From: a virus
Lineage: Duplodnaviria > Heunggongvirae > Uroviricota > Caudoviricetes > Straboviridae
IMG/VR virus record: IMGVR_UViG_2974656882_000001
Location: 64,001 to 128,000 of that record
Direction: 5' to 3' (one strand)
DNA length: 64,000 nucleotides
Shown: piece after piece, positions 12,544 to 60,521 of the stretch
How the letters are laid out: each line of letters starts with the position of its first letter
Numbering within the stretch: position 1 is the first letter of the stretch
Position numbers and translations under genes: made by a program
The notes under the pieces: generated by a model
Seen by the model: only the letters and a program-made list of their open reading frames with translations
Databases searched by the model: none
What the model was told of the DNA's origin: nothing

Positions 12544-13695
12544 ATGAGCAATACTGTTTTTAATCAATTAGCAAATCATATGCTTCAGCCGATGTTCTTT
12601 GGTGAGGACACTGGCGTAGCACGCTACGAAGAAGTTAAACATGAAAAATTTGAAGAGCTAACAACAAAGCAACTCTCGTTTTTCTGGCGTCCTGAAGAGG
12701 TAAATCTAACCACCGACAAAGCCCAATTTGATAAACTCTGGGAGTCCGGCAGAGGTTACCTGCAAGAAATCTTTACAAACAATTTAGGTTATCAAATCCT
12801 TATGGATTCGGTACAAGGAAGAGCACCTGCGATTGTTTTAGCATCAATATGTTCTGATGTTGCATTAGAAACATGGATTATGACATGGACATTCAGTGAA
12901 ACAATTCACTCTCGTTCATATACTCATATTATTCGTAATTTGTACTCTGATCCTTCTAAAATCTTTGACGGTGTTGTTGCTAATAAAGAAATTATGGCTC
13001 GTGCTACAGCAATTTGTGAACGATATGACAAATTACACGAATTAGTAATTTTATATCAAGCTGACAAAATTCGTGATCAAGTACGCCCAGGCCAGTTACG
13101 TGAAGTTAAGAAAGCATTATACATGTGTCTTCATGCAATCAATGCTCTTGAAGCTATTCGGTTTTATGTTTCATTCATCTCAACTTGGAACTTCTTTGAA
13201 AACATGAAAATCATGGAAGGTAACATGAAAATCATGCAATTCATTGCACGAGATGAGAACTTGCACCACCAAGGTACACGTTATATTCTTCAACAAATGA
13301 ATAAAGGCATCGATGGTACAGAATGGCGCGAAATTGCGCTTGAATGTAAAGATGACGCAGAACAGTTATTCATTGAAGTTCGCAATCAAGAACGTGCTTG
13401 GGCTTCATATGTTTATCGTAATGGGTGCCCAGATGGCTTAACCGTTGAATTAGTTTGGGATTTCATTGACTACCAATTAGTGCCGGCGATGAATAATGTA
13501 GGACTAACTTGTCCTATCGAACGCCCTAAACGTCACCCTCTGCCTTGGGTAAACAAATACTTAATGGCATCGTCTGTCCAAGTTGCAAAACAAGAGGCAG
13601 AATTAAGTTCTTACTTAATTTCACAAATTGACAATGATGTTGATGATAATATTATTGCACAATTTAGAGAGAAATATTTACCTAAGCGTAAGTAA
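12544..13695 (+). CDS. nrdB: Ribonucleotide reductase beta subunit, intronless
   Basis: FFWRPEEV, SETIHSRSY, ALEAIRFYVSF, ARDENLH. Confidence 0.97.
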   Translation: MSNTVFNQLANHMLQPMFFGEDTGVARYEEVKHEKFEELTTKQLSFFWRPEEVNLTTDKAQFDKLWESGRGYLQEIFTNNLGYQILMDSVQGRAPAIVLASICSDVALETWIMTWTFSETIHSRSYTHIIRNLYSDPSKIFDGVVANKEIMARATAICERYDKLHELVILYQADKIRDQVRPGQLREVKKALYMCLHAINALEAIRFYVSFISTWNFFENMKIMEGNMKIMQFIARDENLHHQGTRYILQQMNKGIDGTEWREIALECKDDAEQLFIEVRNQERAWASYVYRNGCPDGLTVELVWDFIDYQLVPAMNNVGLTCPIERPKRHPLPWVNKYLMASSVQVAKQEAELSSYLISQIDNDVDDNIIAQFREKYLPKRK

Positions 13696-13698
13696 TCC

Positions 13699-13783
13699 TA
13701 GTTACAAAAATATTAATAGATTTGTAACTATGGCACTCTAAGTTATTGATATTTGAAGTAATTTTCTAGAGTGCCACTTCAAA
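13699..13783. other. Two adjacent 10-bp inverted repeats with possible pseudoknot
   Basis: TAGTTACAAA/TTTGTAACTA; TGGCACTCTA/TAGAGTGCCA; loop TTTGAAGT pairs with ACTTCAAA 13776-83. Confidence 0.6.
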
Positions 13784-13787
13784 AAGT

Positions 13788-13795
13788 TATAAATA
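13788..13795 (+). promoter_or_regulatory. Late promoter with no downstream CDS before the terminator
   Basis: Perfect TATAAATA. Confidence 0.75.
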
Positions 13796-13796
13796 A

Positions 13797-13895
13797 CAAC
13801 GTTATTTGTTATTACGTTGGTTATCTGGTCCGGGAACCGGACCAGTCTGCTGCAGATGCATTTGATTATAAGGAGCTTAGTGCTCCTTTCTTTTT
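13797..13895 (+). ncRNA. Candidate ~100-nt late small RNA
   Basis: Bounded by late promoter and terminator; hairpins CAACGT/ACGTTG and CTGGTCCGG-GAA-CCGGACCAG; no SD-led ORF. Confidence 0.55.
13870..13895 (+). terminator. Intrinsic terminator
   Basis: AAGGAGC-TTAGT-GCTCCTT-TCTTTTT. Confidence 0.8.
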
Positions 13896-13937
13896 GATTA
13901 AAGAAAATAGAAACGTGGCTTTGCCACTACACAACAG

Positions 13938-13963
13938 TGCTTTTTATTTTCTAATAGTATAAT
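13938..13963 (+). promoter_or_regulatory. Middle promoter for rnlA
   Basis: TGCTTTT, 13 nt, TATAAT. Confidence 0.6.
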
Positions 13964-13987: not shown

Positions 13988-15136
13988 ATGGACAAACTTT
14001 TCAAAAATCTAATGGCGTTAGTTGATCCAGAAGATTTCTCAAAATTCTTTTATAAAGACTTCGTTACGCCAATGGGCACTTCAGTGCGAATCTTTTCATA
14101 TAACTATGCATCATACACCGATTGGCTAAACGAAGATGCACTAGAAGCACGTGGCATCATGTTTGAAATGGACGGTGAGACTCCGGTTCGTATTATGTCA
14201 CGCCCAATGGAAAAATTCTTTAACTTAGATGAAACACCATTTACACAAAATCTTGATTTATCTAAAATTGCATATGGCATGGTAAAGGAAGACGGATCAT
14301 TAGTATCAACATACACTGATCACGGATATCTACGTACTAAATCAAAGGCATCAATTTTCTCTACACAAGCAATTGAAGCACAAATGTTATTGTCTAATAT
14401 TGACCATGTCGATTTGCATGATCGCTGTCTCGAACTTGCCAATGAAGGGTATACTTGTAATTTTGAATATGTTTCACCGGGCAATCGTATTGTAATTGCT
14501 TACCCTAAACGAGCGTTAGTACTACTAAACGTACGCAATAATGAAACAGGCAAATATGTCCCATATTCAGAATTGAAACGTGATCCTGTGCTTCGCAAAT
14601 ATTTAGTAGAAGGCTTCCCACTAGCCGAAGGTTCGGATCGTGCTGCAATGGTTGAAGAAATTCGTGCTTCTGAAAATATTGAAGGCTATGTGTTCGTAAT
14701 GGAAGACGGACTCACATTTAAATTGAAGACTGCATGGTATTCAAATCTTCATCGTGTTAAAGATACAATCAATAACGATAAAGACTTATTTGGTGTAATT
14801 GTAGCCGGCGGTTCAGATGATTTGAAATCATTATTTGAAGATGACTACTCGCGATCAAAAATCGAAGCATATGAAAAAATATTCTTTGATTATTTGCGAG
14901 ACTCTTTAAAGGAATTATTAGCGTATCATAAAGAATTTGCAGGTTCTGATCGTAAAACATTTGCAATTAATTCGCAAGCAAAATTCCAGGCGCTTGGGAA
15001 GCCAGAATTATTTGGAATTTCTATGGCAAACTTCAGTGGCACAATGTCACAAGACGATTTAGTCAAAGAAATTAATAAAGTCTTTATGAAAAATACCGAT
15101 CGATATAAACTCAGCGAGTTTTCTACGGAGTCATAA
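13988..15136 (+). CDS. rnlA: RNA ligase 1
   Basis: LEARGIMFE, RPMEKFFNL, adenylation motif KEDGSL, IEGYV..FKLKT. Confidence 0.95.
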   Translation: MDKLFKNLMALVDPEDFSKFFYKDFVTPMGTSVRIFSYNYASYTDWLNEDALEARGIMFEMDGETPVRIMSRPMEKFFNLDETPFTQNLDLSKIAYGMVKEDGSLVSTYTDHGYLRTKSKASIFSTQAIEAQMLLSNIDHVDLHDRCLELANEGYTCNFEYVSPGNRIVIAYPKRALVLLNVRNNETGKYVPYSELKRDPVLRKYLVEGFPLAEGSDRAAMVEEIRASENIEGYVFVMEDGLTFKLKTAWYSNLHRVKDTINNDKDLFGVIVAGGSDDLKSLFEDDYSRSKIEAYEKIFFDYLRDSLKELLAYHKEFAGSDRKTFAINSQAKFQALGKPELFGISMANFSGTMSQDDLVKEINKVFMKNTDRYKLSEFSTES

Positions 15137-37514: not shown

Positions 37515-37542
37515 GATTCTTACCTAAGCAATTGTATAAAGT

Positions 37543-37565
37543 TATTTATACGAAAGTATAAATAA
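37543..37565. promoter_or_regulatory. Divergent late promoters for uvsW and inh
   Basis: TATTTATA 37543-50 and TATAAATA 37558-65. Confidence 0.8.
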
Positions 37566-58704: not shown

Positions 58705-60521
58705 TATGCAATCCTCATCCAACGATATACTGTGATATATGGATCTAATGTTTCAATAGGTTTAGGCGGCGCATGTGAAATATTTGTCGTTGCTTTCTCT
58801 TGACGATACTTATGATATGCAGGACCACTATCGTCTGGATCAAATTGACAACCACCGATTACAACAGAACCATCATTATCCGCAACTAATACTTCTTTAT
58901 CTGTAGCGGTTGCAGGAAGGTTATCATTGTCAATTGACACGGTTCTCGAACCACCGGTACCACCAGCAGTGTGCGTAGGCTGCCCGTTGATGTCCAAGTC
59001 ATTATTATTTAATCCAAATTGGGTATCTTGAATATCATCATTCCAACCGACTAAAACTTTAGCCATACCCCAGAGCTTCCAAACACCAAAGCCCATGTAA
59101 GTAACAGGATTTGCTTTGTTTATTGCATTTTCATAAATGGTGCCAATTGGATACAATAAATCAAACATATCACCAGGGACTTGGATACGAACTGATTTGG
59201 GAGCTTCTGGTTCAACATTTGGGAGAACAGGATTTGAGTAGTCTGTAACTCGAACTGCATTAGTAATATCATACTCACCGCCACGAGCTATATACATATC
59301 ATCTGTAATAACAGTGATATCGTCAATTTCCATTGTTGTGCCAATATTATTATTGTACCATTTTATTGTGAGAATGTCGCCATGCTCAAATTTTCTTCCA
59401 AATTCAATACTTGTGATTGCGCCGTTGTCATTAACACTAATTGTATAATCTTTATGAGATTGAGTCCAATTACCACCCATAAGTTGGCAATCTGTTAAAT
59501 TATTGGCATCTGCGCCTTCACAATACATCATTGGAAGACCTGCACGCCCGGCCATATTTAAAATAACACCATTCAAATAAACTTCAAGTGTTTCAGTATT
59601 GATAAGACCGCTATTACTATTAAAGACATAGCCCATTTGCTCTACTGTAATAGATGTCAAAGAACTTAAATCTGTTACCAGTCTAGCACCAGGAGCAGTT
59701 TCTTCATTTGTTAATTTACTATCAAGTAAAGATAAATCTAAACGATTATATGTTGATCTAAATTGCGCAATACCATCAAGGTAGGTAACAACCATGAGTG
59801 AATCGCCTTTGGCTGCAGGTACTCTAAGTCTAATGCTTCTTGCGTCTAAAGGAACAAGTTGCCCTGCAGCTGCACCTGGTGACCCATAATCGGAATCTGC
59901 GCTAAAGTCATCACCGTAATACAATAGGTTACCTCGAAGATAAACATGAGTATTGACTAAATTATAATCACTGTTGCCAAAGATATTAATAAAGTCTGTT
60001 TGTCCTTCAGTACATAAAAATTCCTTTTTCATCACAGTGGCGATGTCGCCATTTGAAATTTTATTAAGGAGTTTATTAGGAAGGTATTCCCAGCGGTTTG
60101 GACGACAATACACAAGTTCAAGGTCAGTTAAATTTGTAGTGAATACTCTTGCACCACCACCTTTAAGTGTGTCGCCACTAGCAGGCTCAATTGTAACAGA
60201 GTTTGCTTGCCATGTCGAAAATGTATCTCGAATTCGAATTACTTTGTTGTAGTCCGCAGGTGTACCTTTAGGCAATTTTATAACAGCACGAGATGTACCA
60301 GTATCAACTGCGTAAGATTTTCCGAACACTGCATTTAACGTGTTATTTGGTAATTTATGAGCTTCGATAGTCTGCCAAGCTCCAGCAGGGTGAAGATTTT
60401 TACCATCGCCTAATTGATCGTAGGTTTCAGTAAAGTTATTATTAATCTTTATTCCACCTTCTCTCAAATAGTCTCCAGTGCCATCATCAACCATTTGTCC
60501 GATATTTACTAATTCTTTCAT
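58704..60521 (-). CDS. 10: Baseplate wedge gp10
   Basis: VDDGTGDYLREGGIKIN; ITVYRWMRIA. Confidence 0.95.
   Translation of the reverse strand: MKELVNIGQMVDDGTGDYLREGGIKINNNFTETYDQLGDGKNLHPAGAWQTIEAHKLPNNTLNAVFGKSYAVDTGTSRAVIKLPKGTPADYNKVIRIRDTFSTWQANSVTIEPASGDTLKGGGARVFTTNLTDLELVYCRPNRWEYLPNKLLNKISNGDIATVMKKEFLCTEGQTDFINIFGNSDYNLVNTHVYLRGNLLYYGDDFSADSDYGSPGAAAGQLVPLDARSIRLRVPAAKGDSLMVVTYLDGIAQFRSTYNRLDLSLLDSKLTNEETAPGARLVTDLSSLTSITVEQMGYVFNSNSGLINTETLEVYLNGVILNMAGRAGLPMMYCEGADANNLTDCQLMGGNWTQSHKDYTISVNDNGAITSIEFGRKFEHGDILTIKWYNNNIGTTMEIDDITVITDDMYIARGGEYDITNAVRVTDYSNPVLPNVEPEAPKSVRIQVPGDMFDLLYPIGTIYENAINKANPVTYMGFGVWKLWGMAKVLVGWNDDIQDTQFGLNNNDLDINGQPTHTAGGTGGSRTVSIDNDNLPATATDKEVLVADNDGSVVIGGCQFDPDDSGPAYHKYRQEKATTNISHAPPKPIETLDPYITVYRWMRIA

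What the first reader, a model, noticed from the sequence alone, without database searches (positions are those of the whole stretch)
13788..13895. Self-contained late small-RNA gene between nrdB and rnlA
Seen: perfect late promoter, about 100 nt with no SD-led ORF, a hairpin, an unusually GC-rich 9-bp stem (CTGGTCCGG-GAA-CCGGACCAG) in an AT-rich genome, then a strong intrinsic terminator. rnlA has its own middle promoter downstream, so this unit does not serve it. Established: T4 has denA here; its known stable non-tRNA species (rnaC, rnaD) lie in the tRNA cluster. Inference: an undescribed late ncRNA, possibly a protein decoy, antisense regulator or packaged RNA.
Basis: partly seen in the sequence, partly recalled or inferred. 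Interest (0 to 1): 0.75.

Follow-up and report, generated by a model that had tools for sequence, protein, structure and literature searches.

The report
Conserved late small-RNA unit, Acinetobacter phages
Between two early genes of this T4-like Acinetobacter phage lies a real, conserved unit with no gene in it (late promoter, GC-rich hairpin, terminator) that most likely makes a ~95-base non-coding RNA of unknown job, an RNA type not yet characterised in T4-type phages.

Summary
At 13788-13896 there is an exact TATAAATA, about 95 nt without a conserved ORF, a perfect 9-bp GC-rich hairpin and a canonical terminator.

- **Spread:** five Twarogvirinae lineages carry it (Hadassahvirus, which includes the window, Lazarusvirus, the AB1I1M-1 group, Acj9 and Acj61). 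Acj61 has a second copy upstream of gene 47, fenced by terminators on both sides. ZZ1, Ac42 and phage 133 lack it.
- **What is conserved:** only the promoter plus the first ~46 transcribed nt. That stretch is a U-rich arm with GUUAU repeats followed by the GC stem. It is 93% identical between genera, against 58-68% for flanking non-coding DNA.
- **The stem:** it covaries, with four double changes in Acj9. Its 2-3-nt loop flips to its exact reverse complement again and again between close relatives, so only the stem matters.
- **Databases:** no Rfam family matches. No RNA-seq data could be found.

My best reading (about 0.45) is an autonomous late non-coding RNA that acts through its 5' module. 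The main rival (about 0.25) is a lambda-PR'/tR'-like or put-like leader that governs late read-through into rnlA or gene 47. The function is not shown.

First readers of this scan noted the same spacer on at least six other phage genomes; no follow-up was listed for any of them.

The parts
13788..13795 (+). T4-type late promoter box TATAAATA. The predicted start is near 13801.
   Evidence: Exact match. In three genomes, 56 of 88 TATAAATA sites are followed within 80 nt by an SD-led ORF, against roughly 10-20% for most one-base variants. Variants at position 1 are also enriched, for example AATAAATA at 18 of 39. The box is kept in all six copies; Acj9 has AATAAATA.
13778..13846 (+). Conserved core module: promoter plus the first ~46 transcribed nt.
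   Evidence: Covariance model R1 matches 13776-13854 at 87 bits and nowhere else in the window. The core is 93% identical to Lazarusvirus AC4, against 58-68% for flanking non-coding DNA and 79-87% for nrdB and rnlA. The two Acj61 copies are near-identical only over this part.
13801..13896 (+). Predicted primary late transcript, about 95 nt, non-coding.
   Evidence: Inferred from the promoter geometry and the terminator. No ORF or peptide is conserved among the lineages.
13801..13824 (+). U-rich 5' arm with GUUAU at +1, +8 and +20.
   Evidence: GTTAT occurs 5 times in 13742-13824, against a background of 99 per 64 kb. No 75-nt span outside this spacer holds more than 2. Positions +1 to +10 are nearly invariant across lineages.
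13825..13845 (+). Perfect 9-bp GC-rich hairpin with loop GAA.
   Evidence: Covariation: Acj9 has TCCGACCGG/CCGGTCGGA, four double changes. AB1I1M-1 has one double change and one mismatch. The loop flips to its exact reverse complement within each lineage.
13847..13869 (+). Variable spacer between the hairpin and the terminator.
   Evidence: 68% identity to AC4. Its length runs from about 24 to about 90 nt among lineages.
13870..13896 (+). Intrinsic terminator T1, probably shared with the nrdA-nrdB operon.
   Evidence: Found by the terminator scan and annotated as a terminator in phage Maestro. Ac42 and ZZ1 have a similar terminator directly after the upstream gene, without the module.
13699..13730 (+). 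Context: 10-bp hairpin just after the nrdB stop codon, with no U tail.
   Evidence: Kept in four lineages, with compensatory changes at its base. Acj61 keeps only half of it.
13732..13775 (+). Context: second upstream hairpin, GGCACTCTA/TAGAGTGCC.
   Evidence: Seen in the sequence. Each lineage has some hairpin here, but with a different sequence. It is the subject of another first-reader note.
13915..13927 (-). Terminator-like hairpin on the minus strand, back to back with T1.
   Evidence: Found by the terminator scan. The 13896-13927 stretch is 94% identical to AC4.
13958..13963 (+). TATAAT -10 box of rnlA's own promoter, downstream of T1.
   Evidence: Read from the sequence. A TGCTTT lies upstream. 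The promoter class is not verified.

Best explanation
This is an autonomous late transcription unit. The phage late sigma factor (gp55-type) starts at TATAAATA, the RNA begins near 13801 and it ends at the intrinsic terminator near 13896. That gives a non-coding RNA of about 95 nt.

The functional part is the first ~46 nt. It consists of a single-stranded, U-rich arm carrying two or three GUUAU motifs, followed by a 9-bp GC hairpin. The hairpin is a sequence-independent clamp and may become the 3' end after trimming. The loop of the hairpin does not matter.

The RNA most likely acts in trans through the 5' arm, in one of two ways:
- It titrates an RNA-binding protein. The arm contains UUGUUAU, the core of the T4 RegA SELEX site, and the phage encodes RegA.
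- It pairs with a host RNA.

Shown here: the anatomy, the conservation, the covariation, the absence of coding, and the use of this promoter motif in these phages. Inferred: transcription itself, the RNA ends, and any action in trans.
For: - **Conservation:** promoter, stem and a terminator are present in all six copies from five lineages.
- **Second Acj61 copy:** it lies between the terminator of a-gt.4 and a further terminator ahead of gene 47's promoter, so it is insulated on both sides.
- **Extent of the duplication:** the two Acj61 copies are near-identical (about 62 of 65 positions by my count) only from the promoter to the end of the GC stem. Their 3' parts differ.
- **Purifying selection:** the core is more conserved than the neighbouring genes.
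- **Stem:** it covaries.
- **Loop:** its length (2-3 nt) and its orientation vary freely. That fits a hairpin, not a duplex site for a protein dimer.
- **Promoter motif:** TATAAATA marks late-type gene starts in these genomes.
- **Position:** the module sits upstream of an ancestral strong terminator. That is a poor place for a promoter meant only to drive rnlA.
- **Coding:** no ORF is conserved.
- **Motif cluster:** the GUUAU cluster is highly non-random.
- **RegA:** the SELEX sequence is given in PMC3014915. regA is present in the window's own genome.
Against: - No transcript data exist for any of these phages.
- No conserved phage target was found for the 5' arm in three genomes.
- RegA also occurs in T4-type phages in general, so the link to RegA is weak.
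- Sequence conservation runs from -25 through the promoter and, more weakly, to about -90. A plain sRNA gene does not explain that.
- A hairpin that overlaps the promoter (CAACGT/ACGTTG; ACTTCGT/ACGAAGT in Acj61) shows compensatory changes, yet it would lie partly outside the late RNA.
- Template switching in a palindrome could in part maintain the stem's complementarity without selection on the RNA.
Confidence: 0.45

Rival explanations
1. The unit is a promoter-proximal leader that controls late read-through. It would resemble lambda PR'-6S RNA-tR' with Q, or the HK022 put RNA. Polymerase starting at the late promoter would be modified, by the nascent GC hairpin or by a factor bound to the conserved -25 to +10 DNA. 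It would then pass the terminator and express rnlA late (and genes 47/46 in Acj61). The short RNA would be a by-product.
For: - Both Acj61 copies sit upstream of a terminator followed by a same-strand gene.
- Conservation covers the promoter flanks and the start region, not only the RNA.
- RnlA has a late role in T4 as the tail-fibre attachment catalyst, as annotated.
- In ZZ1, rnlA has no promoter of its own and must be reached by reading through the nrdB terminator. Read-through at this locus is therefore normal.
Against: - No antitermination is known for T4-type late transcription (my own knowledge).
- Only one conserved RNA stem exists, whereas put has two.
- The loop sequence of the stem is irrelevant.
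- T4 rnlA has no late promoter of its own; the only TATAAATA nearby is the one ahead of I-TevIII.
- No alternative pairing with the terminator arm was seen.
Confidence: 0.25
2. The element works at the DNA level. It would be a structure-prone palindrome plus GTTAT iterons that serves as a protein-binding, replication or recombination site, or as a mobile regulatory cassette. The TATAAATA would be part of the site.
For: - GTTAT repeats, and the GTTAT-AA-ATAAC palindrome across the promoter.
- Loop flip-flop shows that the DNA hairpin forms during replication.
- The module is duplicated to a second locus in Acj61.
- It is present or absent among related genera.
Against: - The stem arms covary rather than keep a fixed sequence, and the spacing between the half-sites varies. 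Both argue against a duplex site for a protein dimer.
- Each copy has a terminator after it.
- There are one or two copies per genome, unlike PeSL-type cassettes.
- No terminal repeats or target duplications were seen.
Confidence: 0.15
3. The structures are 3'-UTR stability or processing elements of the nrdA-nrdB mRNA, and the TATAAATA is incidental.
For: - No terminator lies between the nrdB stop codon and T1, so the nrdB mRNA should contain the whole spacer.
- The hairpin directly after the stop codon is conserved and covaries.
Against: - The second Acj61 copy follows a terminator and is not in the nrdB 3' UTR.
- The promoter box is kept in every copy.
- ZZ1 and Ac42 do without the module.
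Confidence: 0.1
4. The unit encodes a small protein: either the 63-aa ORF at 13771-13962 that some GenBank records annotate, or a short peptide.
For: - The ORF is annotated as a hypothetical protein in AB-Navy71 and other records.
- AB1I1M-1 has an SD-like sequence ahead of a 31-codon frame.
Against: - The 63-aa frame starts upstream of the promoter, has no SD, runs through the terminator and is broken by indels in Lazarusvirus.
- The short frames differ in every lineage.
Confidence: 0.03

Closest known systems
Lambda PR'-6S RNA-tR' late leader (Q antitermination)
   Same: A late promoter is followed by a short stretch with no ORF and a strong terminator, ahead of same-strand genes. A short terminated RNA would be made by default.
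   Different: No Q-like factor or binding site is known here. The sigma factor is of the gp55 type. The downstream genes have their own promoters. The resemblance is recalled from my own knowledge and was not tested.
HK022 put RNAs (putL, putR)
   Same: A conserved structure in the nascent RNA lies just after a promoter and before a terminator. One phage (Acj61) carries two copies.
   Different: put has two stem-loops with specific features. Here only one stem is conserved, and its loop is free to vary. Antitermination was not tested.
T4 RNA C and RNA D (stable small RNAs)
   Same: They are small non-coding RNAs of unknown role in a T4-type phage (PMC3014915).
   Different: They come from the tRNA-cluster transcript by processing, not from their own late promoter. 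There is no sequence match (Rfam scan).
PeSL cassettes of T4-type phages (PMC2839356, PMC4122927)
   Same: They are a conserved promoter-plus-stem-loop module in intergenic DNA that can occur at more than one locus.
   Different: PeSLs pair a terminator stem-loop with an early promoter. They occur many times in hyperplastic regions and flank variable ORFs. This module has a late promoter, one or two copies, and no cargo gene.
sRNAs embedded in a 3' UTR with their own promoter (DapZ or MicL type)
   Same: The promoter lies downstream of a coding gene, the terminator is shared with that mRNA, and a single-stranded conserved 5' region precedes the hairpins.
   Different: Those are bacterial, Hfq-dependent, and have mapped targets. 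No conserved target was found here.
Minute hairpin-loop inversions in chloroplast non-coding DNA
   Same: The loop between short perfect inverted repeats is repeatedly inverted among close relatives while the stem stays intact.
   Different: That is a mutational pattern, not a function. Here it is seen in phage genomes, including between named lab variants. The chloroplast parallel is from my own knowledge.

Membership tests
T4-type late promoter (gp55-dependent) | TATAAATA box at about -10, with no -35 element needed | tested here: met
   Exact box at 13788-13795. Kept in all six copies; Acj9 has AATAAATA.
T4-type late promoter (gp55-dependent) | The motif is actually used upstream of genes in this phage group | tested here: met
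   56 of 88 TATAAATA sites, and 18 of 39 AATAAATA sites, are followed within 80 nt by an SD-led ORF. Most other one-base variants reach about 10-20%. gp55 is annotated in Acj61.
T4-type late promoter (gp55-dependent) | Late-timed initiation about 6 nt downstream of the box | not testable with these tools
   No RNA run was available.
Intrinsic (Rho-independent) terminator | GC-containing stem followed directly by a U tract | tested here: met
   7-bp stem with 4 GC pairs, 5-nt loop, then TCTTTTTG. Annotated as a terminator in Maestro. Every other copy also has a terminator-like hairpin; the U tract is weak in the Acj61 rnlA copy.
Any Rfam 15 RNA family | Score at or above the family's gathering threshold | tested here: not met
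   The best hits score 10-19 bits against thresholds of 37-382, with E-values of 0.14 or more.
PeSL mobile regulatory cassette | Terminator stem-loop joined to an early promoter, in many copies flanking variable ORFs | tested here: not met
   The promoter is late. Covariance-model searches find one copy per genome and two in Acj61. There is no cargo ORF.
Base-pairing trans-acting sRNA | Single-stranded conserved seed plus a terminator hairpin | tested here: met
   The 5' arm is largely unpaired and positions +1 to +10 are conserved.
Base-pairing trans-acting sRNA | A conserved complementary target | tested here: inconclusive
   No shared top target among the start regions of three phage genomes. 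No exact seed complement outside the element itself. Host transcripts were not searched.
Protein-titrating RNA (CsrB or 6S style) | Repeated short binding motif or a mimic structure | tested here: inconclusive
   GUUAU occurs 2-3 times in the arm and the cluster is significant. UUGUUAU equals the core of the T4 RegA SELEX site, and regA is present.
HK022 put-like antiterminator RNA | Two conserved stem-loops in the nascent RNA directly after the promoter | tested here: not met
   The consensus fold recovers only the GC stem. The promoter-overlapping hairpin would be only partly transcribed.
Small protein gene | SD-led ORF kept in frame among relatives | tested here: not met
   Indels break the 63-aa frame. 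The short frames differ in every lineage.

The most novel reading that the evidence does not exclude
This would be the first family of late-expressed, functional non-coding RNAs in T4-type phages. A ~46-nt module, made of a GUUAU-repeat arm clamped by a loop-indifferent GC hairpin, would act in one of two ways. It could act in trans by titrating an RNA-binding protein such as RegA or a host factor. Or it could act in cis as a previously unknown antitermination device for gp55-dependent late transcription.
Probability: 0.3. Interest if true: 0.75.

Novelty: new variant of a known kind. Interest (0 to 1): 0.6.

Why it matters
**The gap in T4 biology.** T4 is among the best-studied gene-regulation systems. 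[quoted passage not shown] It suggests that relatives' genomes might supply candidates (PMC3014915).

**Why this candidate is usable.** It is concrete, conserved and easy to mutate. It has clear boundaries. It has natural knock-outs (ZZ1, Ac42) and a natural duplicate (Acj61). It has built-in compensatory variants.

**Practical relevance.**
- It sits in phages used against multidrug-resistant Acinetobacter baumannii.
- GenBank records disagree on this interval: some annotate a spurious 63-aa protein, and others annotate nothing between nrdB and rnlA.

**A by-product.** The loop flip-flop is a clean natural example of palindrome-driven micro-inversion in phage DNA.

Tried and rejected
- **Rfam scan at a permissive E-value:** only chance-level hits.
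- **Metagenome pattern scan:** one hit in unrelated AT-rich DNA with no GC stem, a chance match.
- **Genome-contig scan for the stem:** 113 hits; the 80 rows shown are mostly GC-rich bacteria and none is an Acinetobacter. This gives no sign of host mimicry.
- **Viral-contig pattern scan:** only the known Acj9, Acj61 and Kimel genomes.
- **RNA evidence:** no RNA holder was listed.
- **DNA runs laid to look for loop heteroplasmy:** the one raw-read run did not contain the phage. Contigs of three other runs show only the GAA orientation. Uninformative.
- **Literature:** no transcriptome of a Twarogvirinae phage was found.
- **Covariance-model and RNAalifold alignments:** both place the Acj9 3' arm one column off, so undercount its covariation. 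I read the arms directly instead.
- **Long-range pairing of the 5' arm with the spacer:** seen in single folds but not conserved.
- **A long hairpin pairing the upstream GTTATTGAT box with the promoter region:** plausible in four lineages but absent in Acj61, so I did not pursue it.
- **Target searches:** no conserved target.
- **Pfam MotA search, meant to confirm a 'middle' promoter:** no match, but no positive control either.
- **CRISPR-repeat, tRNA anticodon-stem or CsrA-site mimicry of the stem:** considered and dropped. The arms covary and the loop is not conserved.

Full report
**Where we are.** The window is part of a 168-kb T4-like Acinetobacter phage of the genus Hadassahvirus. It is essentially identical to AB-Navy71, Maestro and Bhz15. 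nrdB ends at 13695 and rnlA starts at 13988. T4 has denA between these two genes. Here there are 292 non-coding bases instead.

**The observation.**
- An exact TATAAATA lies at 13788-13795.
- No SD-led ORF follows it.
- A small hairpin lies at 13797-13819.
- A perfect 9-bp stem with loop GAA lies at 13825-13845.
- A canonical terminator lies at 13870-13896.
- The stretch folds far better than shuffles, z = -4.4.
- The GC stem is the most GC-rich perfect 9-bp hairpin of a 36.7%-GC window. Markov shuffles yield 0.03 comparable hairpins.
- Other TATAAATA sites in the window are typically followed within 30-60 nt by an SD and a start codon. This one is not.

**Is TATAAATA a late promoter here?** I tested this on the window's genome, Acj61 and Acj9.
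- 56 of 88 TATAAATA sites have an SD-led ORF starting within 80 nt.
- First-position variants such as AATAAATA are also enriched (18 of 39).
- Most other one-base variants lie near 10-20%.

So the motif behaves as a promoter in these genomes, and the AATAAATA form in Acj9 is compatible with that. With T4 geometry the RNA would begin near 13801. Most of the 5' arm of the first small hairpin would then lie outside the late RNA.

**Conservation.** The unit occurs in about 60 phage records. They fall into five lineages: Hadassahvirus, Lazarusvirus, the AB1I1M-1 group, Acj9 (Acajnonavirus) and Acj61 (Lasallevirus).
- A covariance model of the core finds exactly one copy per genome, except in Acj61, which has two.
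- The second Acj61 copy lies between the terminator of a-gt.4 and a further terminator and promoter ahead of gene 47.
- The model finds nothing in ZZ1, Ac42 or phage 133, nor in five non-Acinetobacter T4-like genomes.
- In ZZ1 and Ac42 the upstream gene is followed directly by a terminator much like T1, with or without a promoter for rnlA.

The module is therefore an accessory insertion between a stop codon and an ancestral terminator.

**What is under selection.**
- Between the window and Lazarusvirus AC4 the core (13778-13846) is 93% identical. Flanking non-coding DNA is 58-68% identical and nrdB and rnlA are 79-87%.
- The two Acj61 copies are near-identical only from the promoter to the end of the GC stem. 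Their spacers and terminators are unrelated.
- Every copy is nevertheless followed by a terminator-like hairpin of its own sequence.
- The stem covaries. Acj9 has TCCGACCGG/CCGGTCGGA against CTGGTCCGG/CCGGACCAG, which is four double changes with all nine pairs kept. AB1I1M-1 has one double change and one mismatch.
- The automatic alignments shift the Acj9 3' arm by one column, so they undercount this covariation.

**A new detail: the loop flips.** Within each lineage the loop variants are exact reverse complements of each other.

| Lineage | Loop and number of records | Flipped loop and number of records |
|---|---|---|
| Hadassahvirus | GAA, 7 | TTC, seen in PhT2 and Minot |
| Lazarusvirus | GGA, 29 | TCC, 4 |
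| Lazarusvirus | GA, 4 | TC, 2 |
| Acj61 (two copies) | one orientation | its reverse complement |

- Even records named as variants of one phage differ. PhT2 has TTC and PhT2-v2 has GAA.
- This is the signature of template switching in a palindrome.
- Three things follow. The loop sequence and its length (2-3 nt) are neutral. The stem is what is kept. A duplex site for a protein dimer is unlikely, because the spacing of the half-sites varies.
- The same mechanism could help keep the arms complementary, which tempers the covariation argument a little.

**The 5' arm.**
- GTTAT occurs five times in 13742-13824, against 99 in 64 kb. No 75-nt span outside this spacer has more than two.
- In the predicted RNA, GUUAU stands at +1, +8 and +20. 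Acj9 and Acj61 keep two or three such motifs.
- The arm contains UUGUUAU, the core of the T4 RegA SELEX consensus (PMC3014915).
- The phage encodes RegA.
- This is a lead, not evidence of binding.

**Not coding.**
- The 63-aa ORF annotated in some records starts upstream of the promoter and runs through the terminator. It is broken by four single-base indels in Lazarusvirus.
- The short frames inside the RNA differ in every lineage.

**Not a known RNA.**
- No Rfam family comes near its threshold.
- PeSL cassettes differ: they have an early promoter, many copies and cargo ORFs.

**Mechanism.** I rank an autonomous late non-coding RNA first (about 0.45).
- The unit carries its own terminator even where the upstream gene already has one.
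- The module sits upstream of a strong ancestral terminator, not after it.
- The conserved part has the shape of an sRNA: a single-stranded arm plus a clamp.

The main rival (about 0.25) is a leader that governs late read-through into rnlA or gene 47, in the manner of lambda PR'/tR' or HK022 put.
- In its favour, conservation extends over the promoter flanks and the start region, and both Acj61 copies precede same-strand genes.
- Against it, only one RNA stem is conserved, and T4 rnlA has no late promoter of its own.

A DNA-level role (about 0.15) and a pure nrdB 3'-UTR role (about 0.1) are less likely, for the reasons given under the rival explanations.

**What failed.**
- Searches for a conserved phage target of the arm were negative.
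- No RNA data were available, and the laid DNA runs were uninformative.
- First readers of this scan had noted the same spacer on at least six other phage genomes; no follow-up was listed for any of them.

**Verdict.** This is a real, conserved, non-coding late unit that is not in the databases. Its expression and function are untested. It is moderately to clearly interesting for T4-type phage biology.

Noticed in passing
window 13825-13845; L183, L184, L185, L186, L187; L026 and L029: The 2-3-nt loop of the GC hairpin is inverted to its exact reverse complement in close relatives: GAA/TTC, GGA/TCC, GA/TC, and the two Acj61 copies. This also holds between records named as variants of one phage. 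It is a micro-inversion hotspot.
   Followed up: yes
L026 6411-6541 (minus strand); Acj61 record about 60169-60246: Acj61 carries a second copy of the module between a-gt.4 and gene 47. It has the same promoter-to-stem core but an unrelated spacer and terminator.
   Followed up: yes
window 13699-13730: The hairpin directly after the nrdB stop codon has no U tail. It is kept in four lineages, with compensatory changes at its base (TAG/CTA, CGG/CCG, CTG/CAG). It may be an mRNA 3' stabiliser or a processing signal.
   Followed up: partly
window 13896-13927: The stretch after T1, including a GTGGC-TTT-GCCAC hairpin, reads as a terminator on the minus strand. It is 94% identical to Lazarusvirus, more conserved than the flanking genes. 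Nothing obvious on the minus strand needs terminating here.
   Followed up: no
window 13771-13962: Several GenBank records (AB-Navy71, Bhz15, BRC001, PhT2-v2) annotate a hypothetical protein in this interval (shown as 63 aa at these coordinates for AB-Navy71). The ORF has no SD, spans a terminator and is not conserved. It is probably a false gene call.
   Followed up: yes
window 37542-37565: Two TATAAATA boxes face away from each other inside a perfect inverted repeat (TTATTTATA-CGAAAG-TATAAATAA). Each is followed by an SD-led gene. This is a compact divergent late promoter pair.
   Followed up: no
window 4602 and 33789 (minus strand): Further exact TATAAATA boxes with no SD-led ORF within 80 nt. 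They are possible orphan late promoters, or chance sites inside genes.
   Followed up: no
L047 (ZZ1), about 1460-1500 of the reverse complement: In ZZ1 only a terminator, about 40 nt in all, separates nrdB from rnlA, and no promoter is present. rnlA there must be expressed by terminator read-through.
   Followed up: partly
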